This document shows, one piece after another, positions 36,583 to 50,334 of a DNA stretch of 64,000 nucleotides. A program made the position numbers and the translations under genes. Below the pieces are notes generated by a model. The model was given only the letters and a program-made list of their open reading frames with translations, was not told the origin of the DNA and made no database searches. The DNA comes from Escherichia coli. Lineage in GTDB: Bacteria; Pseudomonadota; Gammaproteobacteria; Enterobacterales; Enterobacteriaceae. The stretch lies in NCBI RefSeq assembly GCF_030384885.1, contig NZ_CP128614.1. One strand, 5' to 3'. The first letter of the stretch is position 1, and each line of letters opens with the position of its first letter.

Positions 36583-37053
36583 TCAATGATTATTTTTTTC
36601 TTCTAATTTTTTTATGACATTCCCATGCTTTTTACCACACCATGCTTGTTTCCTACCCATAATAAGCAAAACCATTGGCTCGGTCGCTTTCAGTCCGGTT
36701 CGCCAAGACCTTAGATCAGTACTTGATGGCTGTGGGAAATCTTCGGGATGCGTATGCCATTCGCCCAAATAGACTAGAAAACCGTCTGATTGCTGAAATA
36801 AGTCATCCACTTTTTGCTGGTGATGTTTGCTTTTTCTTTCTATTCGTAATCGCGATCTTATATCACCTGCGCCTGGTTCTGATATGTGGGTGATGACAAT
36901 GTGTTTCCCACGACGTTCTCCAATAAGGATTCCTCCTGCCTCGGTACTGGCATGATGTAATTGACGATATAAATACAACCGCTGCACAACATCACTCATG
37001 ATGACGACATGATTGTAATCATCATCGATAAAAACTAACTCAGTTATGTTCAT
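36583..37053 (-). CDS. cap3: CBASS Cap3 (JAB/JAMM isopeptidase)
   Basis: 156-aa ORF with EWHTHPEDFPQPSSTD (HxHx7Sx2D JAMM motif); overlaps the cap2 stop by 14 bp. Confidence 0.75.
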   Translation of the reverse strand: MNITELVFIDDDYNHVVIMSDVVQRLYLYRQLHHASTEAGGILIGERRGKHIVITHISEPGAGDIRSRLRIERKSKHHQQKVDDLFQQSDGFLVYLGEWHTHPEDFPQPSSTDLRSWRTGLKATEPMVLLIMGRKQAWCGKKHGNVIKKLEEKNNH

Positions 37054-38809
37054 TGCAGATAGGACAGTTAGGCTGATGTGGCAAAAACTGAGGTTTCAGT
37101 GAACGTCCACCTTCTAACATATGCTCGTTGTAAGTCCATTTGAGGTCAGGCTCAAGAGTACTCAAGACTGCCTGTTGAGCCAAAGATGCCGTTATATTAC
37201 TCACCGCCGCATCATAAGATGTGTATGTGCTACCACAACTTTTATTTTTTTCACTTGAGATATCGAGGTTGTAAAATCGGGAATCGATACCATTATGGTA
37301 TTTTGCTGGATTAGTAACCATACATCCATAGCAGCTTCGGCCATCATCGATTAAAACTTTGGATGCTCGTCCATTACCATCATTGAAGGCGTGGATAATA
37401 ATAGGTCTTTGCTCACAGGGAATCTGTCTTACGATAGCCGCAATACGCTTGGAAACAGGAGGTCGACCTGTTGCATCGATAATAATGTCATATTTTTTCA
37501 TAACATCAATACTGATGGGGAATTGCTTATAAAATCCTTCTACTCTGGTCTGTAAATGCACAGAGTCTTGAAGTTTTGTTGCGAGTGAGAGCGCTTTGGA
37601 CCACCCAAAATCATGTGAAGGTAAAATGTGACGACCAAAATTACTAGGACGGTAGATATCATCATCAAATAAATGCAGTAAACCTTTCCCACAACCGGCA
37701 CCGTTTCGGAGTAACAATTCTGCAATATACCCACCAATGGTTCCGCAACCAACTAAAGCTATACGCTTATCGGATAAGCATTCTTTGCTTCTCCTTTGGG
37801 CATTTCGGCTAAGGAGGGTTGCCATATCAGCGCGAACCACACCCAATCGTTTATATGAGGCGCATACATTTTTACCAGCTAACAATGTGGCAAGTTTGGA
37901 CGTTGATTTTTTAGCTGATCTCTTGTGCCTTCTGAAATCAACAGCGTTAGTATTTAACTCAATATAGATGGCAAATATATCTTGATTGAAAATGTCGAAT
38001 AAAAAAATATATCTTTTCTTCCCCTCTGTTGTGATGTAGTGAACCACTCTGTCCCTGGCATTATGGTCCGCATTTTCTAGCCAGTCCAGTAATTCGCGGA
38101 ATGAAGTCGGTGGCCATTTCATCCCAGCAAGACGATTAGGGTTTACAGAAATATAATGAGTGTTGATAGAATAATTTTTCAAAGATTCTTGACGAAGGTA
38201 TCTTTGATTAAGCCATTTTTTTAAAATGGTTTCAGAGTCCTCGGGAGAGGATTCTTGGACAGTTATATATTCTAGCCTGGGAGAACCATCAGGAAATGTT
38301 GACTCTGAAAACAGTGTCTTAAGTCTGATCCCGCGGCTTGCTTTTGATAAAATATATAAACTATCACTAGGTCGCCAGTAAGTTGCAAATTCACCTTCGA
38401 GTTCTCTCTTATCATTCAGGCCATTAGTAGCGGCTAAAACTGAATTAATCAGTGTTCGGTGAATCTGGGCATCGACTTCTTTGTACGTACCCTCAAGGTT
38501 GTTTGGATCCCAATCAGCTTCCAACTGCTCTACATAACAGAGAATTCCTTCTTGGCTTATGTGAGGCATAAGGCGATCTCTGAACTTTTCAGGCAGATCA
38601 ACTATGCAAGCTAATGGCAGTTCCGTAAAAGGATCTGGCCGAATAACTAGTGCTACATTGAAATTTCCGGCTTCGGTTTCATATTCTTTCGTATAATAGC
38701 CTTTCAGGCGTTCCTGACTGTGTAGGAACGCCTTTTCAGGAAGTTTGCGGGCTAGCGTATAGCGATACCCGCACTCTATCATCATTTTATGGAGCCTTCC
38801 TTCCTCCAT
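37040..38809 (-). CDS. cap2: CBASS Cap2 (E1/E2 ubiquitin-like conjugation enzyme fusion)
   Basis: 589-aa ORF; Rossmann/ThiF-like ALVGCGTIGGYIAELLLRNGAG in the C-terminal half; start overlaps the CD-NTase stop. Confidence 0.75.
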   Translation of the reverse strand: MEEGRLHKMMIECGYRYTLARKLPEKAFLHSQERLKGYYTKEYETEAGNFNVALVIRPDPFTELPLACIVDLPEKFRDRLMPHISQEGILCYVEQLEADWDPNNLEGTYKEVDAQIHRTLINSVLAATNGLNDKRELEGEFATYWRPSDSLYILSKASRGIRLKTLFSESTFPDGSPRLEYITVQESSPEDSETILKKWLNQRYLRQESLKNYSINTHYISVNPNRLAGMKWPPTSFRELLDWLENADHNARDRVVHYITTEGKKRYIFLFDIFNQDIFAIYIELNTNAVDFRRHKRSAKKSTSKLATLLAGKNVCASYKRLGVVRADMATLLSRNAQRRSKECLSDKRIALVGCGTIGGYIAELLLRNGAGCGKGLLHLFDDDIYRPSNFGRHILPSHDFGWSKALSLATKLQDSVHLQTRVEGFYKQFPISIDVMKKYDIIIDATGRPPVSKRIAAIVRQIPCEQRPIIIHAFNDGNGRASKVLIDDGRSCYGCMVTNPAKYHNGIDSRFYNLDISSEKNKSCGSTYTSYDAAVSNITASLAQQAVLSTLEPDLKWTYNEHMLEGGRSLKPQFLPHQPNCPICNEHN

Positions 38810-40110
38810 CAGCCGCTTACCATCGTGGTGTTAATTTTTACAGGCGCCTGCTCCTTAGACGGGGAGATTTGAAATGCAGGAGCCGCAGCAATTGAAGTTA
38901 TTAACGAGGCATTAGTTACTCGTTTTCCAAACGCATTGTTTATCTTACGTAATGCTTCTTCCCTGCTACTTGAACTCTCTGCATCAAGCAAAATCCCCTC
39001 TAAATTTCTCATGGTTTCAACGATGGTTCTCTGATGTACGTTATGATCGCATTCGGCAGGGAAAAGTAACTTTTCATCAGTATCGTCGGGACTTTCCAGA
39101 CCGCGACAGAATTCATTAGGTAGTAATCTTGCAACTAGTTTCATCGTCCCTGTGAGGTCTGAACCATTATGTGCTTCTCTGTCGAGGATGTTTACAACTG
39201 CAGCCATCAGGCTAATAGATGAAGGACCTCCCACTTCCCATTGGGCATCTCTCCAGGCCTTCATAAAGCGGCAAATTGAACGGAGATGACCGCCAATACG
39301 CTTGCAACTATCATTAAACCAATCTTCAACAATTTTGGGGTCGCTGATCGACCACCTTCTTGCACCCTGACGCAGCGCTAAATTAACTTTGTCAGGTTCT
39401 ACTAGATATGCCTCGCGCATATCCATGTTTGCTGATAAAGACTCGAACATGGAGTCGGCACTTTTTATGATGTGTGCTGAATCGGCTGCAGTTTGTTTGG
39501 TCTGAAATTGCTCTTTGGGGATCGCATACATCGGTACGTCGATGTGTGTTTTCTCGTGAGGAATTTTGATGCGTCCGCAGGTGTTTTTTTCTTCATATAC
39601 CCATCCATCGTTTTCAGCCTCTAACGATTTCAGTGACGTATCAACGAGCAGAAGAAGTAAGGTGTGCCCAATACTGGGTTCGGATTCAAAGACCGTCATT
39701 GGCATGTAGGTGCCGTCATCGATATCCATTTCCTGACCCGGGTGAAAAGGTCTGTTTAACGTATCGTATTGAAAACTCCCTTGGGTCCAGAAGCGAGGTT
39801 GAAATTTGATGAAGTCATCACGAGCTACATCTTCCATTTCAAAAATGAGTCGAGCGAGAGTCTCACGGTCTGAGGGAGAGAGGTAGCGAACATTAGTTTG
39901 CTCCAGTTTAAATCTAACGCTTTCAAGCGTCAGAGTTTGCTTTCTGGCGTCTGTAGCAATTTGACGAGCTTCTTTAAACACATCCCTCGTTCTTTCACGG
40001 ACTTTCTGGCGAAGTGCTTTCAGTTTGTCGGATTCAGTCTTACCCAATTTTAGTTTACTGATTAAGCCATCCACACTATGGCTGTAGTAATTGTTAAAAT
40101 CCCAACGCAT
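38809..40110 (-). CDS. dncV: CD-NTase, DncV-like cyclic dinucleotide synthase
   Basis: 433-aa ORF; NTase motif QGSFQYDTLNRPFHPGQEMDIDDG; long stretches match Vibrio cholerae DncV as recalled (MRxxWNFxxYY N-terminus, RFWTQGSFQYDTLNRPF, C-terminal NxAFGxRVTN...STMVSG). Confidence 0.85.
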   Translation of the reverse strand: MRWDFNNYYSHSVDGLISKLKLGKTESDKLKALRQKVRERTRDVFKEARQIATDARKQTLTLESVRFKLEQTNVRYLSPSDRETLARLIFEMEDVARDDFIKFQPRFWTQGSFQYDTLNRPFHPGQEMDIDDGTYMPMTVFESEPSIGHTLLLLLVDTSLKSLEAENDGWVYEEKNTCGRIKIPHEKTHIDVPMYAIPKEQFQTKQTAADSAHIIKSADSMFESLSANMDMREAYLVEPDKVNLALRQGARRWSISDPKIVEDWFNDSCKRIGGHLRSICRFMKAWRDAQWEVGGPSSISLMAAVVNILDREAHNGSDLTGTMKLVARLLPNEFCRGLESPDDTDEKLLFPAECDHNVHQRTIVETMRNLEGILLDAESSSSREEALRKINNAFGKRVTNASLITSIAAAPAFQISPSKEQAPVKINTTMVSG

Positions 40111-41180
40111 CAGTGGATCTCCTGCGCATTCATGCGCTTAAAGGGTTTTGCGGGAGTAGTGAAAAAATTCTTAAGCTTCTGATCTTGAGCGAACTCAACA
40201 TTGGCGAGCTGCCTTCCCCTTGCGCTTAAATTTTCAAGGGAACTCTTCGTGGCATTATCCAGGGTGATATCACTGGCTGCTTCATTGGGGATAATTTCAT
40301 CCAGGTAGATGTAGTTATCCACCGCGTCATGGAGCATAAGCTCACGCTGTAGCATATTTTTATGAAGATGCTGGTTAGCTGTCATGGTTGTAAGCACCAG
40401 CCGTTTTCCCATACCCCAGAGACGACAGTAGCCATTCCACCATGTTTTGCTCAACAACTTTGGACTAAGTGAATACTCTTCACCAACAGTACCGATATTA
40501 AGTATATGTATGTCTTTATGGGTGACGCTGAAGTCAGAATTCATATCCCTGAAAACTTCCAGAAGTCCTATGTAGCTGGGGTTGTTTGCGACCAGACCAC
40601 CATCGGCAAAATATGCGCGGAGATCCTCACAATAGTGTGGGGAAAAATACGTTGGCGCGGCTGAGGTTGCCAGTGCGGCATCTATCAATTTAAGAGGCCC
40701 ATCACGAGTAAAATCTGGGTTGTGTGGTGTCTTGAAAAACTGCGGTTTTCCTGTTGAAAGGTTTACTGCCGGGATCATTACTCGCCGGGTTAGGTCATTG
40801 AATGTGGTTTCAGCCCCAATCATTTCTTGAATTGTTTCGCGAAGAGGATGGCTGCGGTAGATAGGAGCACAAAGTGATCTAAGCAAGTTGGTCAGGGACC
40901 ATCTTTTGGGAAAAATGTCATTCGCCCTATCGAAGAACACTCGTTCCAGCTCACGGGCACTTTTTCCTGTAGCAAGGCCGAGAGCTAATATGCCGCCTAT
41001 TGATGTCCCTGTAATGAGGTCAAAATAATCGCCAATTTTAATATCCTGATTAGGGTATTTGCTGGCAAGTATCCTCTCAATCTCAGAAAGGACACTGATC
41101 GTAAACATTCCCCTGGCCCCCCCGCCATTAAGACTTAGTATCCGCACGCCATAGTGATTTCCTGCACTTATGTCAGACAT
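40110..41180 (-). CDS. capV: CBASS effector CapV (patatin-like phospholipase)
   Basis: 356-aa ORF with patatin motifs GGGARG (oxyanion), GTSIGG (GxSxG nucleophile) and DGG; stop overlaps the dncV start. Confidence 0.85.
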   Translation of the reverse strand: MSDISAGNHYGVRILSLNGGGARGMFTISVLSEIERILASKYPNQDIKIGDYFDLITGTSIGGILALGLATGKSARELERVFFDRANDIFPKRWSLTNLLRSLCAPIYRSHPLRETIQEMIGAETTFNDLTRRVMIPAVNLSTGKPQFFKTPHNPDFTRDGPLKLIDAALATSAAPTYFSPHYCEDLRAYFADGGLVANNPSYIGLLEVFRDMNSDFSVTHKDIHILNIGTVGEEYSLSPKLLSKTWWNGYCRLWGMGKRLVLTTMTANQHLHKNMLQRELMLHDAVDNYIYLDEIIPNEAASDITLDNATKSSLENLSARGRQLANVEFAQDQKLKNFFTTPAKPFKRMNAQEIH

Positions 41181-41630
41181 AGCCAGCTCCCCTCGGAAAG
41201 ATAGCTATAAGATATGTCCGCTTTTGTAGTTTTCAATGTACAAATAACCAGCAAATTTGAAATATGGTTAAAATAACTGCGTTATGGAAATTAATTGAAT
41301 ATTAATTCTTATTTTTGTTTTCCTGATGGAATTAAAATCTAAGTATGTCATTTTCTGGCTAATTTTACGAAAGGAAAATCCATGGCACATGCAGCCATCA
41401 CCTCACTCAGTCTTGGCTACATGAAACAATCTTGGTGTTATCACCGGTGAGCAAGGAATTGAGAGCTAAGCCTTGAAACAGAGGCATATGTGGGAAAGTC
41501 AGTGGAAAAAATGATGGATCCTAATCTCCCTGTTCAATCGTAACGAATTATCGCCCTTTACTCTTTTCCAGATCCGACTTGGATGTTGTTCATCCAGGCC
41601 GCTAAACGTTGCTGTCGCCGGGCCATCTCG

Positions 41631-41927
41631 TCACCATTTCTCCTGTCTGGCGGGCAAATTTTCCAAAGATTTATTCTCTCCCGACGGCATCATTTCTGAT
41701 GAATTTGCCATCGATGAAAGGCTGATTTCTACTCCCAGCACGGTAAACACTTTGAACAGGCGTTCAATACTCGCACTGGCTGGATTGGCCTCCAGACGAG
41801 CATAGGTTTGCTGGGTCACACCTAACCTTTCAGAGACGTCTTTTTGCGTCAGCCCATTCGCTTTACGAAAGCCAAGCAGCATTGGACGCAATTGGGTAAG
41901 TATTTTTATCGGATAAACATTTTTCAT
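41631..41927 (-). CDS. HipB-like XRE-family HTH regulator
   Basis: 98-aa ORF; LGFRKANGLTQKDVSERLGVTQQTYARLEANPASASIERLFKVFTVLGVEISL aligns with E. coli HipB as recalled; no hipA-like gene follows; lies 450 bp upstream of capV on the same strand. Confidence 0.6.
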   Translation of the reverse strand: MKNVYPIKILTQLRPMLLGFRKANGLTQKDVSERLGVTQQTYARLEANPASASIERLFKVFTVLGVEISLSSMANSSEMMPSGENKSLENLPARQEKW

Positions 41928-42201
41928 CGTGGGTAGGCCTCTATATGGTTTGATACACCCTGTAAGCTGTGTTTACATAATTACACCTTAAAAGCTGTTA
42001 AATCAAGATTACAGCTTAAAAGCTGTTCAAAAGTCATAACAGCCTGTTGCTATTAATATGGACAGGAAGAATACGTAGCACTGGCAGACGCAAACCAGAC
42101 TTGGATTGATAACGGCCACTGCTGTTTATTGTTGAATCCGTCTAACCTAATTCCAGTTCAACTATTGAAATAGAACCGGCATAGCGGATACATTACGCAC
42201 G

Positions 42202-42600
42202 TTGTTACCTTGTATCATCAGGATGCCGTTGACTGTGTTTATCAGCCGTGAAGTCATTTCCAGAATCGTGCTTATCATCATGGCTGTTGCCGTGCTGAGC
42301 AGTTCGCTTATGGTAAAACCACAGGCTGTCTACAATCTCCAGGATACAACATCCATCAGTGACCATCAGCACGACAGCGATGAACCGCTGAATGAGCACG
42401 ATCCGTTACAGTTCCACTCGCACGGTAATGTGCATCACCTCAATGCCGATCATTCCCACGATCTGAACAAACTCTTCACGCTGACTGCTTTGCAGGCCTG
42501 GAACGCAGGCATGCGGGCGACGTTCGCGCTAAGTTCAGAACAAATCCTGCGGGTCCCCCAGGCGACCCCCGAACGCCCTCCGAGATCCCTGATTGCGTAA
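42202..42600 (+). CDS. His-rich secreted or membrane protein (possible metal binding)
   Basis: 132-aa ORF with a hydrophobic N-terminus and His/Asp-rich segment HQHDSDEPLNEHDPLQFHSHGNVHHLNADHSHD. Confidence 0.35.
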   Translation: MLPCIIRMPLTVFISREVISRIVLIIMAVAVLSSSLMVKPQAVYNLQDTTSISDHQHDSDEPLNEHDPLQFHSHGNVHHLNADHSHDLNKLFTLTALQAWNAGMRATFALSSEQILRVPQATPERPPRSLIA

Positions 42601-42643
42601 TAACTTCCGTTAATTCGTTATTATTCAATTTGTAAGGGTTTTT

Positions 42644-43043
42644 ATGAATACCAGCCTCGATATACAGGGCCGGTTGAACGGTGGCCTGCTTTCAGCTCAG
42701 GCGCGTTCGGCTTGTCTGTTTTTCCTGTTGTTACTGCTTTTCTACAGCCAGGGCGCGTATGCGCACGACGTGGCGGAGGGCGACAAAGGGTACATCCAGG
42801 AAATCACCGGGATTATCGTCAATGCACAAAGGAGCGTGGGTAACGCTGGAAGGTAATGTTATCAGCCAGCAGGATGAGTGGTACACCTTCCGTGATCCAA
42901 CCGGCACCATCAAAGTGCGCATTCCTCAGAAGGTCTGGAACGGGCAGCACTTCGATGCTCAGGATTTGGTGCGGGTGAGTGGGCAGGTAATTCATGAGAA
43001 TGGTGCTACGAGCCTTGATGTAGGTGTGATTAGCAAGCCCTGA
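42644..43043 (+). pseudogene. YgiW/YdeI (BOF, OB-fold) family periplasmic protein, frameshifted
   Basis: signal peptide in frame 1 (42644..42856) and the OB-fold body (AWVTLEGNVISQQDEWYTFRDPTGTIKVRIP...) in another frame (to 43043); frames switch near 42820-42850. Confidence 0.5.
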
Positions 43044-43235
43044 ATTCCATCAAAACAAGCGGTACTTATAATAACCTTCATCCCGAGCGTGATAGCGCAT
43101 CACAACTTCGAGACTTTCTTCAAGGAATATATACGTCTGGGCATAGGACTCTCCATTATGAGAGTCCAACTAATGAGGGCAATGTATCGATCTGAGTATG
43201 AGATTGCTTTGTGGACTAAGGCAGAAATGAGCCTT

Positions 43236-43547
43236 CTAAGGCTGATCCTTCTTCAAGATTTTGATGAGTTCGATTTGCTGTTGTTCAGACATGTTAGCGA
43301 TCAGGCGAGCTAACTCTGCAGTCGTTTCGTTCTCGCAAAAGAAGTAGTTGATCGGTACCCCAAGTTCATCAGCCATACGCTTAAGAGTATCAATGTCAGG
43401 AGTATGTCTCCCCTTCTCGTAGTGGTTCATGCGGCCACTCGCTGAACTTGGTTCCATGCCAATTCGGATACCCAATTCTTTCTGAGTGATCCCGGCATAC
43501 GTTCTGGCAGCCTTGAGCCTGTCAGGTATCGGATTTGGGTGAGCCAC
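43236..43547 (-). CDS. XRE-family HTH transcriptional regulator
   Basis: 103-aa ORF with HTH LKAARTYAGITQKELGIRIGMEPSSASGRMNHYEKG; divergent from the helicase operon. Confidence 0.6.
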   Translation of the reverse strand: MAHPNPIPDRLKAARTYAGITQKELGIRIGMEPSSASGRMNHYEKGRHTPDIDTLKRMADELGVPINYFFCENETTAELARLIANMSEQQQIELIKILKKDQP

Positions 43548-43572
43548 GAAGTCATCATCATTGCCTTAGAGT

Positions 43573-43623
43573 ACTTAGATTGTCTAAGTTTCGTTGGTTT
43601 CTGTATACTTAGCAATTCTAAGT
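43573..43623. promoter_or_regulatory. two 17-bp palindromic operators in the divergent promoter region
   Basis: ACTTAGAttgTCTAAGT (43573-43589) and ACTTAGcaattCTAAGT (43607-43623), same half-sites, 17 bp apart, between the XRE gene and the helicase-operon start. Confidence 0.6.
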
Positions 43624-43646
43624 TTACTGATTTGGAAGTTTTAACA

Positions 43647-44216
43647 ATGAAGTCTGCAGTGAAGTTGCACCCTTATATTTATAATTTGTTGATAGAAAGA
43701 GATTTTGATGAGTTCGGTGCTATCCATCTCAGGGACGCTTTGCTGAAGATTACAGATTCATATGCTGATGTAACTGAAGCCAGAAAATTCATCCGCCGAC
43801 AACTTATCCGGCTGGAGGCATTGGGCTTCATTTTTAAAATTGAAAATAGCAGTGGGCGTCCGAAGATCCTGTACAAGAAAACGGAAAGCTTCTATTCAAC
43901 GACTTTCATACCAAGAAAATTGCCAAGTAACTCGCGCCTGGCTGCTGTGCCCGAAAATGTGAAACTACACGTTTTGGATGTCGATCTGTTCTTAATGGAC
44001 CTGACAAAAGAAAAAACTGTCCATGAGGCCAAACTTGCCGTCATTCTGAGTGAAATTGAAGAGTACCAGTCTCTTATGGAGCGTTTTCCCAGTAGACGGA
44101 GCTGCTTTATTGAACTCCATCAGCACGCAAAAAATCAGTCCGCCGCTTTGCTTGGCAGGGTTACTGCTTTATCGAAAGTGCTAGGTCAGCTTAGCGATGG
44201 GGATTGCGCATGCTGA
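43647..44216 (+). CDS. hypothetical protein, first gene of the helicase operon
   Basis: listed ORF 43539..44216; likely start is ATG at 43647 (MKSAVKL..., RBS-like GGAAG upstream) since the upstream part overlaps the divergent XRE gene; no catalytic motif recognised; 13-bp overlap with the helicase gene. Confidence 0.5.
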   Translation: MKSAVKLHPYIYNLLIERDFDEFGAIHLRDALLKITDSYADVTEARKFIRRQLIRLEALGFIFKIENSSGRPKILYKKTESFYSTTFIPRKLPSNSRLAAVPENVKLHVLDVDLFLMDLTKEKTVHEAKLAVILSEIEEYQSLMERFPSRRSCFIELHQHAKNQSAALLGRVTALSKVLGQLSDGDCAC

Positions 44217-45598
44217 GGGAGTGGCAGAAAGAATGCTCTGAAGCAGCGCTAGAAAAATATCAATCTGGATCGCCGCACTTTCTATGTCTTGCCAGTCCTG
44301 GTGCAGGAAAAACCGTGATGGCTGCTGAAGTTGCCAGGAAAATGCTGGAGCTGAAACTAGTAGATCTCATCCTATGCTTTGCACCTTCATCTGTGGTGGT
44401 TGCATCCATTGAAAGTACTTTCTCCCATATTCTTCAAAGGAACTTTAATGGTGGTCTTGGTGCAGTAGGTGCTGCGTATACTTATCATAGCTTGATGTAT
44501 TTCGATAAAAGCTTCTGGAAGTCTTTGCAGATGCATCGGGTATTAGTTATTTTCGACGAAATCCATCATTGTTCTGGCGATTCGCTGGATAATGCTAATG
44601 TGTGGGGCGGGGAAATCCTTTCTCAAGTTCAGCAATGTGCCAGTTACTCTTTGGCACTAACAGGGACTCCATGGCGAACTGATAGTACTCCTATAGTGCT
44701 CTCAAATTACACTGATCCGGATGGGGAGATCTGTTGTGACTATGTATATGGACTACATGAGGCTATTGTCGATGGTGTTTGTCGTAAACCTAAAATCGCC
44801 TTGATAAACAGCAATAATTTAGTATATTCATCAAAGGATAATGTTCAGTTTTTTGGTTCCATCACAGATTTCCTGAGTGAAACCGTTGCTTCGTATCAAT
44901 CAATAATTTGGCATCCAGAAGCAATGAAGTATGTACTAGAAGCTGGATGTAAAAAACTTAACGAAATACGCAAAGTTAATTCTGATGCGGGTGGTTTAGT
45001 TGTTGCTTCTTCAGTCGAGCATGCATATAAGCTACTGAATATTTTGGAAAAAGAGTTTGACCAAACAGCGATAATTGTGACGTACCACGATCGAGATGCT
45101 TTGGCTAAGATTGGATATTATCGGCAATCAACTACAGAATGGATTGTTAGCGTTGGTATGATTAGTGAGGGCACAGATATCCCCAGGCTACAGGTCTGCT
45201 GCCATTTGAGTTCTGTCAAAACAGAACTTTACTTCAGACAAGTATTGGGCAGGATATTACGGGTGAATCAGAGTGAAAATCAGGAAGCCTGGTTATTTAC
45301 AATGGCTACAAATGAACTGACATTATTCTCAAACAGATTGGCCGAAGATTTACCTGAAGATTATAAAGTTATGCAACAACAATCTGATGATTGGTCATTC
45401 CCTACAATTGATTCTCAGTCTATGCCTCCAGAGTTTGTGCGGAAAAATGGTATATCTAAAATAAAAGAGATTGATTTAGAAATGGATATTGGTGAAATAA
45501 CTACATCGTCACCTACGATTTCAAGTCAAACAAAACAACTAAAAATGGGCTCAATGCATCAACAAGTGATAGATGCATTTTTATTTTCAATTATTTAA
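44204..45598 (+). CDS. SF2 DExH-box helicase
   Basis: 464-aa ORF with Walker A ASPGAGKT, motif II IFDEIHH, LTGTPWR, and motif VI FRQVLGRILR. Confidence 0.65.
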   Translation: MRMLREWQKECSEAALEKYQSGSPHFLCLASPGAGKTVMAAEVARKMLELKLVDLILCFAPSSVVVASIESTFSHILQRNFNGGLGAVGAAYTYHSLMYFDKSFWKSLQMHRVLVIFDEIHHCSGDSLDNANVWGGEILSQVQQCASYSLALTGTPWRTDSTPIVLSNYTDPDGEICCDYVYGLHEAIVDGVCRKPKIALINSNNLVYSSKDNVQFFGSITDFLSETVASYQSIIWHPEAMKYVLEAGCKKLNEIRKVNSDAGGLVVASSVEHAYKLLNILEKEFDQTAIIVTYHDRDALAKIGYYRQSTTEWIVSVGMISEGTDIPRLQVCCHLSSVKTELYFRQVLGRILRVNQSENQEAWLFTMATNELTLFSNRLAEDLPEDYKVMQQQSDDWSFPTIDSQSMPPEFVRKNGISKIKEIDLEMDIGEITTSSPTISSQTKQLKMGSMHQQVIDAFLFSII

Positions 45599-45654: not shown

Positions 45655-45975
45655 TTAAAACTGGCTAGTTACGGCCAGTTTCCCTAGGGAACTATAGTTT
45701 TTATCTATACAACGTGAAGCTAAAGAAGAGTGAATGATTGCCTTTTTTGTAACTAATTTTATTTTTAACTCCTCAAGCTTGTCTTTTAATGATTTATTTT
45801 CCTCTTCAAGAAATGATATTTTTACTAGTGATGCCCTTAATAAGTCATTGAGCTGGTGATGTTCTGAAGCCATTTGACGGAGTCTTTTTCGAGGGGGCTG
45901 AAAGCGTTCTGCAGGCACTGTTAGTGGTATAAAATATGCCCACGACTGTATTCCTGTTGTGTGGTAATTCCTCAA
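45655..45975 (-). CDS. small coiled-coil protein (partial paralog of 45993..46433)
   Basis: 106-aa ORF; MASEHHQLNDLLRASL...EEENKSLKDKLEELK parallels MAAEHHQLSHALRVARSRIEALEQEIKALK in the neighbour. Confidence 0.4.
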   Translation of the reverse strand: MRNYHTTGIQSWAYFIPLTVPAERFQPPRKRLRQMASEHHQLNDLLRASLVKISFLEEENKSLKDKLEELKIKLVTKKAIIHSSLASRCIDKNYSSLGKLAVTSQF

Positions 45976-45992: not shown

Positions 45993-46433
45993 TTATTTTA
46001 TTCTTACTATCTGGCCTTGTTTTAAAGCTTTTATCTCTTGTTCCAGCGCTTCAATACGTGAACGTGCAACCCTCAGCGCATGGGAGAGCTGATGATGTTC
46101 AGCCGCCATCACTTCCAGACGACGTTTCATATCAGATGCTTTTACACGGTACTGAATTTTCACTTTACGCTCTTGGTTAAATTTATGTCGCAGGGCTTCC
46201 TGTGACTGATGAGTTAGCCTGCCCTGAGGGGATATTTTTAACCGCAGAATTTCCTCCTGGACGCGTGACTTAAATGCCCCGTAGTAGTAACAGGTTCCGT
46301 TTCCCAGCCCGGCCTCCTCTTCAACAGCACGCACCGACAACTTTCGGTTGTCAGGGATACGTTTTGTCTGACCATCAAGGATCCGTTGTAGTGCAGCTTC
46401 AAGTTTAAGGAGTGTATTTTCTGATTTGCTCAT
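45993..46433 (-). CDS. small coiled-coil protein downstream of the recombinase genes
   Basis: 146-aa ORF overlapping the stop of the 720-aa gene by 4 bp. Confidence 0.45.
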   Translation of the reverse strand: MSKSENTLLKLEAALQRILDGQTKRIPDNRKLSVRAVEEEAGLGNGTCYYYGAFKSRVQEEILRLKISPQGRLTHQSQEALRHKFNQERKVKIQYRVKASDMKRRLEVMAAEHHQLSHALRVARSRIEALEQEIKALKQGQIVRIK

Positions 46434-48592
46434 ACGCCTGTCACCTTAATGGGATGTTCATATGTGTCATAGCCAATCCCATGATCCTGCATAACCCGTT
46501 CCGCAGCCCGGATTTGAGTGATACAGTGGGCATACTCACTGATGCTTAGATCCGTCTGTTGCTGAAGATACATTATCAAAGCATTATGACGTTGCTGCCA
46601 CCACATGGCCTTATCCGTATCGATAATGCTTCCACCGCTACGACAATCCACGCAGAATGCAGGGTTGACCACACCATCCATATCGCAGTCATAGCCGTTT
46701 TTGCAGTAACTATGTAGCGTTCCATGCAAAGTAAGTCGTTTTTCCCTGACCAGTCGATAGAGATTATCCCAGCTACTGTAGATCACAGGCTTATCATTAC
46801 GCATAGCTAGAATGGCTTTGCCAAAACTTCCGCTGAGTTGACTATCCCCGTTAAACCAGCTGTCAAAAAGACTAGTTGTCTGTTCGAGCCTTGCTTCATT
46901 CAGTAATTTAATCAGTTCGCTGTCCACCTGTATTGATTGTAGCCGTGCTTCAACAGCACCGTTCCCATACCATTCACTCATTCGCAGGCTGAGGTGTTTA
47001 AACTGTTGTTTGATTGCGATGGGGTGTCCGAGCTGGTTACGTACGGCAAAGCAGGCGAAAGTTCTTCGAAACTGATGGGTTAAAAGGGGCCAGGCCTCTC
47101 CTGTTCTGATCTTATCTTCTATAGCCCCCCTGTCCCGAGGGTTAAGCTGACGGCACTCTGCGAGTGCCTGTTTATCAACAATAGCACCCACATGTCTGGA
47201 AAAATTTTTTAAACGGTCGTTCCACTTGCTGCGTGAAATGAGGACAGGCAGGTTTTTTCTTTGGTACTGGCTGAGCCACAGATTTCCTGCTGTCTCAGTA
47301 AGCGTATCAGACTGCCCTGGGTCGTTGCTGTGAACCGCTATTTTTAACAGCTGTTCACGAGCACACGCGCTGAGAGCCGTCGCAAGCGATATGGCTTTTT
47401 CAACAATAGGGCTTGCCAGCCATTCTTCATTTTTTTTCCCGGCAGCCAGTTTGTGGGTTGCTGCGCTTACCGAGTGAAAATCCTGTCCATTAATGGTGTA
47501 GGTGTGAAAACTGTCCACATGCAATTCAAATATTTCGCTGACTCTCATTCCTGTGAAAGCACCACAACAAATAAAACAGGCTGCCTGAAGTTGAGCACGA
47601 AAACTGACGAGCCAGTTACCGTCTGCTGCGCTACTGGGCAGGAGTCCTGTTCCGGTGAGATGGTTTTTGATTAGGGTATTTTGCGACCGGGGTGTCGCTT
47701 TATTAATTTCTTCTACATATTCTTTTGAACATAATTTCCCCTGTCCGTTAGTCAGCCATGTCCACTTACCTGTAAGTATTTTATAGTCAACAACGGCACG
47801 CCCGATATCATAATTAGACTGCAGTTCACGTTCTAGCTGGGCTAGTGTTTCTCTGTGGGGCCATGCAAGCTCGACAAGTCTAACGGCTTCTCCATAGAGT
47901 ATATTTGCTATTGCCTGGGGGATGGCCAGGGTTTGCCTGTGTTCTGCTTTATTTTTAGCTGACAGTTTTTTGGCTGTCTGTTTGTAGTTCAGCTGTGGCA
48001 GGTCAAGCTGGAAAGGAAGCCATGAATTTAGTCTTTCGACTGACTGTAGTGCAGAGAAAATCAATTCAACAGTTCGCTTACTAAAGGCTTCACGTTCGAT
48101 ATCGTTTTGTAGCTTTTGCCATATCTCGGGTTTATTGAAGTCAGACAGGCACGTGCTGCCACTATGCAAAAGCGTTAATAAACTCTTTTTTAACCCTAAA
48201 TTGAATCGGGAGGTCAGTGTTGACAGCTTGCAGTCTTTTCCGGAGTGATAATTTTGCTCAAATATCCATCCATATACGATAAGCTTCGCCTGAAGGAGAA
48301 GCGCCGGAGCGGACTCCAAATAGGTAAAGTTAAATTCACGCTGGTTTTTATCCGTTCCCTTATCTGAAGCAAAGGGGCTACAGTCCCAGCAATTTTGACC
48401 AAAATATGCTCGCGTGATGTTATGTTTATCGATACATATTGGGAGCTTATCGAGCGCAGACCAGTTTTTGTTTTTTATCAGAAGTAAAATATCTTCTGTG
48501 GCTCCATACGTCAGAGCGTCTTTATGAAATGAGTTCAACAGAATAGCCATAGTGATCCTTATGTCATATCTGTGCTTTGCACATCTGACCAC
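46430..48592 (-). CDS. tyrosine-recombinase-like protein (third of three tandem genes)
   Basis: 720-aa ORF with AFTGMRVSEIFEL (box I Arg) and LTHQFRRTFACFAV (HxxR) in the C-terminal half. Confidence 0.55.
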   Translation of the reverse strand: MVRCAKHRYDIRITMAILLNSFHKDALTYGATEDILLLIKNKNWSALDKLPICIDKHNITRAYFGQNCWDCSPFASDKGTDKNQREFNFTYLESAPALLLQAKLIVYGWIFEQNYHSGKDCKLSTLTSRFNLGLKKSLLTLLHSGSTCLSDFNKPEIWQKLQNDIEREAFSKRTVELIFSALQSVERLNSWLPFQLDLPQLNYKQTAKKLSAKNKAEHRQTLAIPQAIANILYGEAVRLVELAWPHRETLAQLERELQSNYDIGRAVVDYKILTGKWTWLTNGQGKLCSKEYVEEINKATPRSQNTLIKNHLTGTGLLPSSAADGNWLVSFRAQLQAACFICCGAFTGMRVSEIFELHVDSFHTYTINGQDFHSVSAATHKLAAGKKNEEWLASPIVEKAISLATALSACAREQLLKIAVHSNDPGQSDTLTETAGNLWLSQYQRKNLPVLISRSKWNDRLKNFSRHVGAIVDKQALAECRQLNPRDRGAIEDKIRTGEAWPLLTHQFRRTFACFAVRNQLGHPIAIKQQFKHLSLRMSEWYGNGAVEARLQSIQVDSELIKLLNEARLEQTTSLFDSWFNGDSQLSGSFGKAILAMRNDKPVIYSSWDNLYRLVREKRLTLHGTLHSYCKNGYDCDMDGVVNPAFCVDCRSGGSIIDTDKAMWWQQRHNALIMYLQQQTDLSISEYAHCITQIRAAERVMQDHGIGYDTYEHPIKVTGV

Positions 48593-50334
48593 AGGGGATG
48601 TCGTCCTTCATCAGCAAGTTTTCGACGGGCATGTTGTAGTGTTTTTTGATTCAGTAATTTCAGCCTGCTATCAATGTTTACGATGGTCTGGCCAAAGTTT
48701 TTTGTGTAATGGGCTTTATCCAGGTGAAGGTATTGTGATTCTTCCAGATATTCACGGAAGCTTAACACGCACCATAAATCCGTTACTGATTCGACCAGAA
48801 CCTGATGTTTGCAACTCCAGCAGTTTAACAGGTCAGCACAAGCCAGCGTTTCTTCCGGGGGGATCAGCCCGTTTCTCCTGGCCCGGGAAGTGAACATCGT
48901 GGCCATTGTACCAGCCGTGTCGTTACAATAACTTCCATGGGAGTTTCGTACGGGAGGCGATGCTCTTCTGACATAGGCCTCATATGCCAGCACGCTGACC
49001 TTTTGTGCTTCACGTACTTTCTGTTTTGCAGATTCAATACTCTGCCTGTCCCGGACAACCTGTTCCAGTGTCTGGCTGGTATCCCGGTTCATTTGATTGT
49101 TCTCGTAGGGGTTACCATCAGAATATGCCTGACGGATAGTTTCGGGGGTATTATCAAGCAGTAGTGCAGCCTCGACCGGGCCCTTCAGCGCCAGTGTCAG
49201 ATGACTGCCGGTGGCCCGAAAGCGCCTGGTGACCGGCCACAGCCTTTGCCCTAAGTCGTCTGTCATGGGGAAGTGTACAGAGAGCCAGCTACTTTTGAAG
49301 TCATTCAGCAGGCAGGAACTCATCATCTGGACGCTTTTTTTCCGATGACTATAGGTCGGTAAGAGCAGGCCATCCGGGCCGGGGTCTAACAACGTTGACG
49401 CAGTAATGAGCTGGTCAAAAAACTGTGTTGCGTATTTGGGTATTTCCAGCCGATTGTTGTCACCTATCTCAACAGAGATTGTTTTAAATGCCCGGCGCTT
49501 AAAGGCTGGCATCTGATGCCAGTTATCTGATGGTGTATGGCTGCTGAGTGTCGGTCTTTTTAATGTGTACAGGATGGAGCTGTTGCTCCATGTGTAATAA
49601 CTGAGCAGGTATGCGGCTGCATAAAATAATTTTGATACACCGCTGCGTACAGGATACGTTTTCCCTTTCCAGCAAAAAGTCATTGTTGCTGTGATACCGC
49701 TGGCTTTGATATGTGAATCTGGGTCAAGAATAAACTGGGAGTAAAGTTGCCTGAACAGTCCTCTTAGTAAAGGGAGTAATTTTTTCAGGTCACCATCGCT
49801 ATATCCTCGTGTGGGCTCTGATTGTGTATTTCCCGGGTTTTTAAACCCTGACGTAAACTTTGTACTCCGCCCCATCCAGTTGTATAAGGTTGTCAGGTCT
49901 GCCTTTATCCTGGAGGCTGTGCTGTCTTTGATTTCGCCCCTCCTTTGACGAAGTAAATGACATTTCAACTCTCTGATGAACGTGCTCTCAGACAGGGGGA
50001 TAAGTGCTGGCACCTGACTGTCACAGAAAGTAAAATGCTTTCTTGCAGCATTAAAAATATTATACTTTGTTGCAGGTGTGACATCTTCATGGCCAGTAAT
50101 TGCAATAAACAGTGACTGTACAATGTCATCCCGTGCCAGTAATTGCTCATCCCCCTGTTTTATCAGGTTGGTTTTGGGTATGCCCTTATAGCGAAAGCGG
50201 TTAAAATCTAACAGGGTATGAGCATTGGCGCCATTGCGTATTGGTATACAGAGGTGTTCAACCCAGGGCGTTGTGAGTTTTAATTTGCTGCTCATACTTT
50301 CACTCCAGTAGTGCTCTGTGCATAATTTCATCAA
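48559..50334 (-). CDS. recombinase-module protein (second of three)
   Basis: 591-aa ORF overlapping both neighbours; catalytic motifs not clearly readable. Confidence 0.45.
   Translation of the reverse strand: MMKLCTEHYWSESMSSKLKLTTPWVEHLCIPIRNGANAHTLLDFNRFRYKGIPKTNLIKQGDEQLLARDDIVQSLFIAITGHEDVTPATKYNIFNAARKHFTFCDSQVPALIPLSESTFIRELKCHLLRQRRGEIKDSTASRIKADLTTLYNWMGRSTKFTSGFKNPGNTQSEPTRGYSDGDLKKLLPLLRGLFRQLYSQFILDPDSHIKASGITATMTFCWKGKTYPVRSGVSKLFYAAAYLLSYYTWSNSSILYTLKRPTLSSHTPSDNWHQMPAFKRRAFKTISVEIGDNNRLEIPKYATQFFDQLITASTLLDPGPDGLLLPTYSHRKKSVQMMSSCLLNDFKSSWLSVHFPMTDDLGQRLWPVTRRFRATGSHLTLALKGPVEAALLLDNTPETIRQAYSDGNPYENNQMNRDTSQTLEQVVRDRQSIESAKQKVREAQKVSVLAYEAYVRRASPPVRNSHGSYCNDTAGTMATMFTSRARRNGLIPPEETLACADLLNCWSCKHQVLVESVTDLWCVLSFREYLEESQYLHLDKAHYTKNFGQTIVNIDSRLKLLNQKTLQHARRKLADEGRHPLWSDVQSTDMT

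What the first reader, a model, noticed from the sequence alone, without database searches (positions are those of the whole stretch)
43236..45598. XRE regulator divergent from an unknown-protein plus SF2-helicase operon: candidate uncharacterised defence module
A 103-aa XRE HTH gene is transcribed divergently from a two-gene operon: a roughly 190-aa protein with no recognisable catalytic motif, overlapped by 13 bp with a 464-aa DExH helicase (ASPGAGKT, DEIHH, QxxGRxxR). The 100-bp divergent region holds two 17-bp palindromic operators with identical half-sites (ACTTAG...CTAAGT). The module sits inside a defence island next to CBASS. Short helicase plus small-partner pairs with a dedicated repressor are typical of antiphage systems, and I could not assign this pair to a named system from sequence.
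Basis: partly seen in the sequence, partly recalled or inferred. Interest (0 to 1): 0.72.

Follow-up and report, generated by a model that had tools for sequence, protein, structure and literature searches.

The report
Controller-gated VspR–helicase cassette beside CBASS
The three genes are real and belong to no named defence system, but two of them are known kinds of regulator (a restriction-type controller protein with its operator boxes, and a relative of the Vibrio cholerae CBASS repressor VspR), and they gate a conserved, uncharacterised helicase found on many mobile islands and CRISPR-guided transposons.

Summary

- **XRE gene.** It encodes a C.Csp231I-class controller (C) protein. The two palindromes are its C-boxes (CTTAG-N5-CTAAG), 19 bp apart, and they lie over the promoter of the divergent operon.
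- **"Unknown" 189-aa protein.** It is a VspR-family winged-helix plus coiled-coil protein, 37% identical to V. cholerae VspR. The XRE is 62% identical to VC0176.
- **Island.** It is a VSP-1-like GInt island on an IncHI2 plasmid.
- **Helicase.** It is a nuclease-less SF2 motor resembling RadD, XPB and HsdR. It has no confident PADLOC hit, and every homologue whose neighbourhood I examined (down to 46% identity) has a VspR partner and a divergent C-protein.

An operator scan returned 116 loci. In 76 of 96 evaluable loci VspR is followed by the helicase. In the other 20, VspR is followed by something else, in several cases a type I RM or CAST tniQ-cas operon. In 27 of 84 loci the cassette abuts tnsABC. 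Flanking genes are mostly defence systems.

The regulatory half is a known kind. The VspR–helicase pair is conserved, widespread and uncharacterised, and a defence role is plausible but unproven.

The parts
43236..43547 (-). C.Csp231I-class controller (C) protein gene, XRE family, 103 aa, GTG start. It is a homologue of V. cholerae VC0176.
   Evidence: PADLOC Control_protein 3.8e-25 over the full profile. PDB C.Csp231I 3lfp E=1.4e-17. 62% identity to the VSP-1 VC0176 homologue.
43573..43589 (.). C-box 1, ACTTAG-ATTGT-CTAAGT. It is proximal to the C gene and overlaps the -35-like hexamers of both divergent promoters.
   Evidence: Conserved in 95 of 95 loci with the paired-box architecture. Same layout as the C.Csp231I operator CTAAG-N5-CTTAG.
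43607..43623 (.). C-box 2, ACTTAG-CAATT-CTAAGT. It overlaps the 3' end of the -10-like hexamer and the predicted start site of the VspR-helicase promoter. The 15-bp cores are 19 bp apart.
   Evidence: The spacer is exactly 19 bp in 95 of 95 loci.
43580..43609 (+). Promoter-like site for the VspR-like/helicase operon: -35 TTGTCT at 43580-85, 18-bp spacer, -10 TATACT at 43604-09.
   Evidence: Consensus scan. The stretch TTTTACTGATTTCTGTATACT between the boxes is conserved across families, although C.Csp231I binding does not need the spacer sequence. This is an inference, not mapped.
43557..43586 (-). Candidate promoter of the C gene: -35 TAGACA at 43586-81, -10 AATGAT at 43562-57. The predicted start lies a few bases before the GTG, so the mRNA would be near-leaderless.
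   Evidence: Consensus scan. Inference only.
43647..44216 (+). VspR-family protein, 189 aa. It has an N-terminal winged helix-turn-helix, a disordered linker and a C-terminal helical hairpin.
   Evidence: Pfam VspR_N and VspR_C on all homologues. 37% identity, E=4e-29, to V. cholerae VspR P0433. AF2 model with pLDDT 77. Foldseek top hits are PadR, AphA and MarR.
44210..45598 (+). SF2 DExH helicase/translocase, 462 aa. It has two RecA lobes (1-380), a disordered tail (385-441) and a short conserved C-terminal motif. There is no nuclease domain. Its start overlaps the VspR-like stop by 7 bp.
   Evidence: Pfam ResIII and Helicase_C. Motifs invariant in 28 homologues. AF2 pTM 0.73. Foldseek top hits are RadD, XPB and the HsdR motor. 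PADLOC gives only weak hits.
45677..45693 (+). Terminator-like hairpin followed by a T-run, 80 bp after the helicase stop. In this window the operon ends here.
   Evidence: The next genes are convergent.
36583..41180 (-). Context: type II CBASS (capV, dncV-like, cap2, cap3), the same type as VSP-1. Ancestrally it lay directly downstream of the C gene on the same strand.
   Evidence: PADLOC. In K. oxytoca plasmid L001 the C gene stop is 431 bp from the capV start.
41534..43229 (.). Context: 1.7-kb segment absent from the K. oxytoca relative. It now separates the C gene from CBASS and carries a HipB-like HTH gene (41631-41927).
   Evidence: blastn of the window against L001. NCBIfam HipB 1.2e-10.
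45993..51679 (-). Context: ginABCD-like operon (459, 591, 720 and 146 aa). These are GInt island recombination genes, and the cassette is the first cargo after ginD.
   Evidence: ORFs. ginD-like is 41% and ginC-like 31% identical to the genes that follow CBASS in VSP-1. ginA gives weak XerC hits. GInt definition from PMC5385486.

Best explanation
This is a self-regulated control cassette of mobile genomic islands, not a classical toxin-type defence system.

**Step 1: the controller.** The XRE protein is a C.Csp231I-class controller. Two dimers bind the two C-boxes, probably as a looped tetramer as in C.Csp231I. The boxes cover the -35 and the -10/+1 of the promoter that drives the VspR-like and helicase genes, and box 1 also overlaps the -35 of the C gene's own promoter. 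When the element enters a cell with no C protein, the VspR-helicase operon should fire. As C protein accumulates the operon is shut off and C autoregulates. This is the 'zygotic induction' logic of C-controlled R-M systems and of Xre in I-F3 CASTs.

**Step 2: the second regulator.** The VspR-like protein is a dimeric winged-helix repressor. Like V. cholerae VspR, it is expected to act on promoters of the island, including the C-gene side and flanking cargo such as CBASS.

**Step 3: the helicase.** It is translationally coupled to VspR. In every helicase locus whose neighbourhood I examined, a VspR gene lies upstream. It is a nuclease-less dsDNA-translocase-type motor. I propose that it works on DNA together with VspR, being loaded or targeted by it, as the enzymatic output of the switch. 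Most likely it serves establishment or control of the island and its defence cargo, rather than killing phage by itself.

**Basis of each step.**
- Shown here by sequence, structure prediction and comparative genomics: the identity of the three proteins, the operator architecture, and the conserved gene order.
- Shown in the literature for homologues: C-box binding, autoregulation and repression of the divergent promoter, and VspR as a repressor of VSP-1 CBASS.
- Inferred: promoter positions, the VspR-helicase partnership, and the biological role of the helicase.
For: **C protein and its boxes.**
- PADLOC Control_protein 3.8e-25 and PDB C.Csp231I 1.4e-17.
- The published operator is CTAAG-N5-CTTAG twice with an 18-bp spacer. 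The window has CTTAG-N5-CTAAG twice with 19 bp.
- The spacer is invariant in 95 of 95 loci. Both boxes always carry the same variant (62 T/A type, 33 A/T type, none mixed).
- XRE residue 42 is His with CTTAG/CTAAG in 62 of 62 loci and Gln with CTAAG/CTTAG in 33 of 33. C.Csp231I and VC0176 are both Gln.
- The boxes overlap the promoter-like hexamers.

**Published behaviour of homologues.**
- Xre proteins of I-F3 CASTs bind such motifs, autoregulate and repress.
- VpxR represses the divergent P_VPA1392, whose box overlaps a TATAAT. The same CGGACTATAATCCG motif stands before VspR-like genes in L009, L131 and L132.

**VspR identity.**. VspR is described as a negative regulator of VSP-1 CBASS. The predicted fold is PadR-like wHTH plus a helical hairpin.

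**Cassette conservation.**
- In 76 of 96 evaluable operator loci VspR is followed by the helicase, with stop and start overlapping.
- Three helicase homologues at 46-54% identity in Enterobacter, Pseudomonas and Alteromonas all have a VspR-family partner and a divergent HTH gene.
- Both C-protein classes (C.Csp231I-like and C.AhdI-like) are used.

**Backbone-like position.**
- tnsA-tnsB-tnsC ends -3 to +23 bp from the C gene in 27 of 84 loci.
- The cassette lies next to ginD in the window, and the same island type holds VC0176-VspR in VSP-1.
- Some genomes carry 2-3 copies.

**Cargo on both sides.**
- After VspR or the helicase: type I RM, CBASS, Gabija, PtuA-like genes and CAST tniQ-cas.
- After the C gene: CBASS, Gabija, type I and type III RM, dGTPase.

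**Helicase.** It has no nuclease or toxin domain.
Against: - No experiment bears on this helicase.
- Promoters are consensus matches only. The scan found 9 in the region against 6.6 expected.
- The His/Gln-to-operator association separates two clades, so it may be a single evolutionary event.
- No physical VspR-helicase interaction was tested, because no complex prediction was available.
- In this window nothing follows the helicase on the same strand, and a 1.7-kb insertion separates the C gene from CBASS. Cargo control here may therefore be vestigial.
- In V. cholerae, loss of vspR had no effect on CBASS-dependent sulfamethoxazole sensitivity, so VspR's regulatory weight is debated.
- The strong enrichment of defence genes around the cassette fits a defence role equally well.
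Confidence: 0.45

Rival explanations
1. Stand-alone two-protein anti-phage or anti-plasmid system. VspR-like would be the DNA-binding sensor or targeting subunit. The helicase would be the effector, a translocase that evicts replication or transcription machinery from invader DNA or remodels it. The C protein would only set the expression level.
For: - The cassette sits in defence islands and Tn7 or GInt cargo next to CBASS, type I and III RM, Gabija, Wadjet with BrxR, dGTPase and PtuA-like genes.
- The motor resembles HsdR and type III/ISP restriction motors.
- C proteins classically gate harmful restriction enzymes.
- Tight translational coupling suggests a complex.
- VspR-like genes are absent from 50,697 phage records.
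Against: - There is no nuclease, toxin or other effector domain in either protein.
- Neither protein has a confident hit in PADLOC 2.0, which includes candidate PDC and HEC families.
- The founding member VspR is a transcriptional repressor and works without a helicase.
- 20 of 96 loci keep VspR but lack the helicase; in several of these a different operon follows directly.
- The fixed position beside tnsC and several copies per genome look like element backbone.
- The helicase is more conserved (about 50% identity between Enterobacteriaceae and Vibrio) than VspR (about 35%), which by my general knowledge is unusual for fast-evolving defence effectors.
Confidence: 0.3
2. Accessory factor for movement or establishment of the mobile element itself. 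The helicase, targeted by VspR, would process donor or target DNA, assist repair after Tn7-like or GInt recombination, or counter host silencing immediately after transfer.
For: - The C-protein logic predicts expression at entry into a new host.
- The cassette abuts tnsABC in 27 of 84 loci, and in the VspR-to-tniQ-cas arrangements it lies between tnsABC and tniQ-cas.
- It abuts ginD in the window.
- The closest solved relatives, RadD and XPB, are DNA-repair motors.
- P_VPA1392 is silenced by H-NS, ToxR and LeuO in V. parahaemolyticus.
Against: - The same cassette occurs with unrelated mobility systems (Tn7-like, GInt, other integrases, plain plasmid backbones) and with none nearby.
- VSP-1 and several CAST loci lack the helicase.
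- None of the CAST papers consulted mentions a helicase requirement for transposition in E. coli.
Confidence: 0.15
3. Signal-transducing derepressor. The helicase would sense phage DNA or replication intermediates and use ATP to strip VspR, or the C-protein loop, from DNA. That would switch on the flanking defence operons during infection, by analogy with CapH/CapP or BrxR/CapW control of defence genes.
For: - Variable defence operons lie directly downstream on both sides.
- VspR represses CBASS in V. cholerae.
- The XRE gives a secondary match to CapH (4e-9).
- A translocase with no effector domain suits a remodelling role.
Against: - No sensor domain is evident.
- The helicase is itself under the repressed promoter, so it would be scarce when needed.
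- In this window no cargo is co-oriented downstream.
- I know of no precedent for helicase-driven derepression of defence islands.
Confidence: 0.1

Closest known systems
C.Csp231I / C.EcoO109I ('motif 8') restriction-modification controller proteins and their C-boxes
   Same: The protein is homologous over its full length, including the C-terminal extension. There are two 15-bp palindromic boxes of the CTAAG-N5-CTTAG type, 18-19 bp apart, upstream of the C gene.
   Different: No restriction endonuclease or methyltransferase is attached. The half-site centre is swapped (CTTAG/CTAAG) and goes with His42 instead of Gln. The boxes are embedded in a divergent promoter that drives a regulator and a helicase.
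VC0176-VspR (VC0177) regulatory core of V. cholerae VSP-1
   Same: The genes are homologous (62% and 37% identity). The divergent layout and paired C-boxes are the same. The same type of CBASS lies in the same island, with ginD- and ginC-like recombination genes.
   Different: VSP-1 has no helicase and no remnant of one. There, CBASS follows VspR, whereas in the window it lies on the C-gene side. The window element is on an IncHI2 plasmid.
Xre regulators of type I-F3 CRISPR-associated transposons (Petassi et al. 2020; VpxR of V. parahaemolyticus)
   Same: The two C-protein classes are the same (about 100 aa C.Csp231I-like and 68 aa C.AhdI-like). The position right after tnsABC matches in 27 of 84 loci. 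Repression of the divergent promoter was shown for VpxR.
   Different: The window carries no Tn7 or CAST genes. The CAST papers consulted do not mention the VspR-like gene or the helicase.
Defence-island transcription regulators CapH/CapP and BrxR/CapW
   Same: All are small HTH regulators at the head of CBASS and other defence operons. The XRE gives a weak CapH match (4e-9).
   Different: There is no CapP metallopeptidase and no WYL domain. The best match by far is to the C-protein family.
RadD, archaeal XPB and the HsdR motor domain (SF2 dsDNA translocases)
   Same: They share the two-lobe SF2 core and are the top structural matches. All helicase motifs are present.
   Different: RadD scores 55 bits against a 720-bit cutoff. 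The helicase lacks RadD's C-terminal domains, HsdR's nuclease and any Bax1-like partner. It is about 380 aa of core plus a disordered tail.
Helicase-plus-partner defence systems (Hachiman HamAB, Gabija GajAB, Pbe)
   Same: A helicase gene is coupled to a smaller partner gene inside defence islands.
   Different: The partner here is a wHTH regulator, not a nuclease. PADLOC models do not match beyond generic helicase similarity.

Membership tests
C.Csp231I/EcoO109I-class controller (C) proteins | Sequence homology to C.Csp231I, including the extended C-terminal helix | tested here: met
   PDB 3lfp E=1.4e-17 over residues 10-93. PADLOC Control_protein 3.8e-25, profile positions 2-94 of 101.
C.Csp231I/EcoO109I-class controller (C) proteins | Two palindromic C-boxes of the form CTAAG-N5-CTTAG upstream of the C gene, separated by a long spacer (18-25 bp) | tested here: met
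   CTTAG-N5-CTAAG twice with a 19-bp spacer. The central base is swapped, in step with His42 versus Gln.
C.Csp231I/EcoO109I-class controller (C) proteins | Part of a restriction-modification system, with the C gene co-transcribed with or upstream of the endonuclease gene | tested here: not met
   No REase or MTase lies adjacent. The neighbours are VspR-like/helicase and (ancestrally) CBASS. It therefore works like a C protein but is not an R-M component here.
C.Csp231I/EcoO109I-class controller (C) proteins | Binds the boxes as dimers and autoregulates | not testable with these tools
   Supported only by homology, by the covariation and by published work on homologues.
VspR family (Pfam VspR_N PF27213 + VspR_C PF27192) | Both Pfam domains present, with homology to V. 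cholerae VspR | tested here: met
   The domains are precomputed on the near-identical cluster representative and all homologues. BLASTP to P0433 'transcriptional regulator VspR [Vibrio cholerae]' gives 37% identity, E=4e-29, over nearly the full length. The copy of Pfam-A that I could scan lacks these new families.
VspR family (Pfam VspR_N PF27213 + VspR_C PF27192) | Encoded divergently from a VC0176-like HTH gene | tested here: met
   The same holds in nearly all of the 111 operator-scan loci that have a VspR-like gene.
VspR family (Pfam VspR_N PF27213 + VspR_C PF27192) | Represses the neighbouring CBASS or island genes | not testable with these tools
   Known only for V. cholerae from the literature.
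GInt genomic islands (ginABCD + cargo) | Operon of three tyrosine recombinases plus a small fourth gene at one end, with cargo starting right after ginD | tested here: inconclusive
   There are four co-oriented overlapping ORFs of 459, 591, 720 and 146 aa. The 459-aa product gives weak XerC/XerA hits around 6e-6, and the others have no NCBIfam hit. The ginC- and ginD-like genes are homologous to VSP-1 genes. Catalytic motifs, att repeats and the AT-rich 3' end were not examined.
[quoted passage not shown] | tnsABC and tniQ-cas8/5-cas7-cas6 flanking the xre gene | tested here: not met
   phmmer with TnsA, TnsB, TnsC, TniQ, Cas8/5 and Cas7 from related loci found nothing among the window ORFs.
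Named helicase-containing defence systems in PADLOC 2.0 (Hachiman, Gabija, Pbe, DISARM, Druantia, type I/III/IV restriction and others) | Protein matches the system's helicase model, and the system's partner genes are adjacent | tested here: not met
   The best hit is PbeA at 1.3e-8 (partial), and the rest are 1e-4 or weaker. The small protein has 0 hits. No nuclease partner is present.
RadD (YejH) DNA-repair helicase | Reaches the NCBIfam equivalog cutoff and has RadD's C-terminal domains | tested here: not met
   55.3 bits against a cutoff of 720. The structural match covers the motor core only.
CapH/CapP CBASS regulators | CapH HTH repressor paired with a CapP metallopeptidase | tested here: not met
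   The capH model scores 4.3e-9, far weaker than Control_protein. No peptidase gene is adjacent.

The most novel reading that the evidence does not exclude
The VspR-family protein and its translationally coupled nuclease-less SF2 translocase would form a previously unrecognised two-protein DNA-directed system under C-protein 'entry-triggered' control. The family is widespread: 516 VspR clusters at 50% identity, spanning Vibrionales, Alteromonadales, Pseudomonadales and Enterobacterales. It would be a near-universal accessory of type I-F3b CRISPR-associated transposons and of VSP-1-like GInt islands. It would either provide a new kind of anti-invader immunity or control when the element's defence and transposition cargo is expressed.
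Probability: 0.35. Interest if true: 0.8.

Novelty: new variant of a known kind. Interest (0 to 1): 0.6.

Why it matters
- **VSP-1 and CBASS regulation.** VspR has been studied as a V. cholerae curiosity. Here it appears as one member of a large family whose usual state includes a helicase that VSP-1 lacks. VC0176 emerges as a restriction-type controller with textbook C-boxes. That gives concrete, testable operators for the long-unclear regulation of the VSP-1 CBASS.
- **CRISPR-guided transposons.** The CAST papers I consulted describe only xre between tnsABC and tniQ-cas. The adjacent VspR-like gene and helicase are conserved there and could affect transposition or its regulation, which is relevant to engineering these elements.
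- **Clinical plasmids.** An almost identical cassette sits on an mcr-9 IncHI2 plasmid, and identical helicase sequences occur on many Enterobacter and E. coli contigs, next to CBASS. Its effect on phage susceptibility or plasmid establishment has practical interest.

Tried and rejected
- **Pfam-A scan of the small protein.** Nothing was found, because the scanned library predates the VspR_N and VspR_C families. The assignment came from precomputed annotations.
- **Small protein in PADLOC, PHROGs and NCBIfam.** No meaningful hit.
- **The search for related loci with broad VspR alignments.** I used the conserved operator DNA as the probe instead. This biases the sample to one operator class, so three helicase-anchored plasmid loci were checked separately.
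- **Phage replication module.** Rejected. The VspR-like protein has no match in 50,697 phage records, although the helicase resembles the generic phrog_16.
- **Helicase remnant in VSP-1.** None found.
- **Extra C-box in front of capV or elsewhere in the window.** Only a half-site-like ACTTAGATTTT lies upstream of capV. A one-mismatch match at 51801 is within chance expectation.
- **Extended -10 promoter.** Considered and dropped because the TG is not in register.
- **Known RNA families.** None in the window at Rfam gathering thresholds.
- **Tn7/CAST genes in the window.** None.
- **Covariation as proof of binding.** The association is perfect, but the two operator types form two clades, so I count it as roughly one event.
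- **Literature search for VspR plus helicase.** Nothing relevant.


Full report
**1. What is in the sequence**

The region holds three genes.
- An XRE-family ORF lies at 43236-43547 (-), 103 aa, with a GTG start.
- A 189-aa ORF lies at 43647-44216 (+).
- A helicase ORF ends at 45598 (+).

The mechanical ORF list starts the helicase at TTG 44204. All 28 aligned homologues begin MLRxWQ, so the start is ATG 44210. That gives 462 aa and a 7-bp overlap (ATGCTGA) with the upstream stop.

The 99-bp intergenic region contains ACTTAGATTGTCTAAGT (43573-43589) and ACTTAGCAATTCTAAGT (43607-43623). These are the only two matches in 64 kb, against 0.14 expected by chance.

A terminator-like hairpin follows the helicase at 45677-45693. 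The next genes are convergent, so here the operon consists of two genes.

The window is 99.6% identical to the IncHI2 plasmid pMY490-mcr-9 of Enterobacter cloacae. Identical helicase sequences occur on many Enterobacter and E. coli contigs.

**2. The XRE protein and the palindromes are a known kind**

- The XRE matches the PADLOC 'Control_protein' model end to end at 3.8e-25.
- It matches the solved C.Csp231I controller protein at 1.4e-17.
- C.Csp231I recognises CTAAG-N5-CTTAG at two 15-bp sites 18 bp apart, a layout that sets this class apart from other C proteins (PMC4321490).
- The window has CTTAG-N5-CTAAG twice, 19 bp apart.

I scanned one genome per species with the box-2 motif and obtained 116 loci. 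Among the 95 loci with full data:
- the spacer is always 19 bp;
- both boxes always carry the same variant (62 CTTAG/CTAAG, 33 CTAAG/CTTAG, none mixed);
- XRE residue 42 is His with the first variant and Gln with the second, without exception.

C.Csp231I and V. cholerae VC0176, which use CTAAG/CTTAG, have Gln. The two types form two clades. This is therefore about one evolutionary event rather than many, but it agrees with the XRE protein reading the boxes.

Consensus promoter hexamers place the -35 of the rightward promoter inside box 1, with its -10 abutting box 2. The -35 of the leftward (C gene) promoter also falls in box 1. These are matches, not mapped promoters.

**3. The 'unknown' protein is a VspR-family regulator**

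- Every homologue carries Pfam VspR_N and VspR_C. The Pfam copy I could scan is older and lacks these families.
- A search seeded with a plasmid gene annotated 'transcriptional regulator VspR' retrieved the V. cholerae VspR cluster (P0433).
- P0433 is 37% identical to the window protein over nearly the full length, E=4e-29.
- The AlphaFold model (pLDDT 77) has an N-terminal winged helix-turn-helix, a disordered linker and a long C-terminal helical hairpin.
- Its best structural matches are PadR, AphA and MarR-type repressors.
- A profile search found 516 family clusters at 50% identity, all about 170-190 aa.
- The papers consulted describe VspR as the negative transcriptional regulator of the VSP-1 CBASS operon, although its weight is debated.

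**4. The whole locus is a relative of VSP-1**

The V. cholerae locus (L128) reads:

dcdV <- VC0176 <-> vspR -> capV-dncV-cap2-cap3, then <- 143 aa <- 703 aa.

The comparison with the window is as follows.
- The window XRE is 62% identical to VC0176.
- The VSP-1 intergenic region has the same paired boxes.
- The 146-aa and 720-aa genes downstream of the helicase are 41% and 31% identical to the 143-aa and 703-aa VSP-1 genes.
- Together with two further upstream ORFs, these form a ginABCD-like operon, as defined for GInt islands.
- The window's CBASS is the same type II system.
- In a K. oxytoca plasmid the C gene stands 431 bp upstream of capV on the same strand. In the window a 1.7-kb insertion (41534-43229) separates them.
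- VSP-1 has no helicase and no remnant of one.

**5. The helicase**

- It has ResIII and Helicase_C domains.
- All SF2 motifs are invariant across 28 homologues down to 38% identity.
- The model (pTM 0.73) shows two RecA lobes (1-380), a disordered and variable tail (385-441), and a short conserved C-terminal motif.
- There is no nuclease or other effector domain.
- The nearest solved structures are RadD, archaeal XPB and the motor of HsdR and other restriction translocases.
- RadD scores 55 bits against a 720-bit family cutoff, so it is not RadD.
- PADLOC gives only weak generic hits.

**6. How the cassette is distributed**

In the operator scan, 111 of 116 loci have a VspR-like gene beside the boxes, almost always with a divergent XRE gene.

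| Measure | Result |
|---|---|
| Evaluable loci with VspR followed by the helicase (stop and start overlapping) | 76 of 96 |
| Evaluable loci with VspR but no helicase | 20 of 96 |
| Helicase loci with room downstream that have a same-strand gene within 400 bp | 39 of 61 |
| Loci where XRE is met tail-to-tail (gap -3 to +23 bp) by tnsA-tnsB-tnsC | 27 of 84 |

- Genes that follow the helicase include type I hsdR (the largest cluster, 16 loci counting both arrangements), CBASS, Gabija gajA and PtuA-like ATPases.
- On the other side, the C gene can be followed on its own strand by CBASS, Gabija, type I or type III RM, or a dGTPase.
- The position after tnsABC is where Petassi et al. placed 'xre' in I-F3 CASTs. 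They showed that these Xre proteins are C-protein homologues that bind their motifs, autoregulate and repress.
- Three helicase-anchored loci at 46-54% identity (Enterobacter, Pseudomonas, Alteromonas) show the same triad with a short HTH gene. The equivalent 68-aa HTH protein in metagenomic locus L009 matches C.AhdI, and L009 shares the box motif of two of these loci. Two C-protein classes therefore appear to serve the same VspR-helicase pair.
- In V. parahaemolyticus, the C.AhdI-like VpxR represses the divergent promoter of the 'hypothetical' VPA1392 through a box overlapping a TATAAT. The same CGGACTATAATCCG motif precedes VspR-like genes in my loci.
- 'vspR' also tracks with the VPaI-7 CAST genes in that species. 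VPA1392 is therefore probably a VspR homologue. I did not verify this directly.
- No VspR-like gene was found in 50,697 phage records.
- None of the papers I found links VspR to a helicase or mentions either gene in CASTs.

**7. Interpretation**

The regulatory half is well supported. It is a C.Csp231I-class controller with its C-boxes gating a divergent promoter, plus a second, VspR-type repressor. By analogy with C-controlled R-M systems and CAST Xre, the VspR-helicase operon should fire when the element enters a cell lacking C protein, and should be shut off once C accumulates.

The helicase is the unexplained part. Four observations point to a control or establishment module of mobile islands, with the helicase acting on DNA together with VspR:
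- a VspR gene lies upstream of the helicase in every locus I examined;
- it lacks any effector domain;
- it sits next to element core genes;
- it occurs in several copies per genome.

I give this reading about 0.45. The rivals are:
- a stand-alone defence system, about 0.3, because the neighbourhood is overwhelmingly defence genes;
- a transposition or integration accessory, about 0.15;
- an infection-triggered derepressor, about 0.1.

**8. Verdict**

But two of the three genes are known kinds of regulator, the locus is a VSP-1 relative, and a direct antiphage role is unproven.

What appears new is the obligate-looking VspR-helicase pairing and its near-constant presence next to xre in I-F3b-type Tn7-like elements.

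Noticed in passing
window 45993-51679 (-): Four co-oriented, overlapping ORFs (459, 591, 720 and 146 aa) resemble a ginABCD operon of GInt islands. The last two are homologous to the genes that follow CBASS in V. cholerae VSP-1. This suggests that VSP-1 and this plasmid island are the same type of element. The cargo (helicase cassette, CBASS, HEC-08 and more) starts right after ginD.
   Followed up: partly
window 45655-45975 (-): A 106-aa ORF between the helicase and ginD shares 50% identity over 36 aa with the C-terminal coiled-coil of ginD (E=1e-8). It may be a relic of a second ginD, and so of an earlier island junction.
   Followed up: partly
window 41534-43229: A 1.7-kb segment is absent from the otherwise collinear K. 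oxytoca plasmid. It carries a HipB-like HTH gene (41631-41927, NCBIfam HipB 1.2e-10). It also holds two overlapping ORFs in different frames: 42644-42856 with a signal-peptide-like start, and 42681-43043 whose C-terminal half looked to me like a small OB-fold stress protein. Together these two look like one frameshifted gene.
   Followed up: no
window 31221-36247 (-): Three further island genes lie here. One is a 368-aa HEC-08/DUF3644 candidate defence protein (33419-34525, PADLOC 5.7e-70). One is a 651-aa PAPS-reductase/DndC-like protein (31221-33176, DndC 1e-17, far below family cutoffs). One is a 407-aa protein with no hit (35024-36247).
   Followed up: no
window 1129-6365 (+): A MobH-family relaxase (1129-4281) and an SXT-type TraD coupling protein (4281-6365) fit the IncHI2 conjugative backbone. 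An IS4-family transposase lies at 20142-21260.
   Followed up: no
L131 (E. hormaechei IncHI2A plasmid NZ_CP156945, locus 4122-6413): A second, divergent version of the triad (68-aa HTH, VspR-like, helicase 54% identical) sits on another IncHI2 plasmid next to TIR-domain genes, a CBASS phospholipase and the ter operon. IncHI2 plasmids therefore carry either of two cassette types.
   Followed up: partly
L129/L130 (V. parahaemolyticus) and L006 (Moritella): Here the C gene is directly followed on its own strand by Gabija gajA-gajB, while VspR stands alone on the other side. Large recombinase-like genes (461, 173, 787 and 780 aa) nearby resemble another gin-like operon.
   Followed up: no
L019-L021, L116-L118 (Vibrio sp. 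T20, V. tetraodonis): Single genomes carry three copies of the cassette with the same operator motif. Resident C proteins should therefore cross-repress incoming copies, which would amount to a kind of immunity between related elements.
   Followed up: no
L002 (pMY490-mcr-9, NZ_CP053569): In the 99.6%-identical public plasmid record, the CBASS genes, the XRE and the helicase are each split into fragments, and the helicase is annotated 'diguanylate cyclase'. This looks like frameshift errors in that assembly rather than biology.
   Followed up: no
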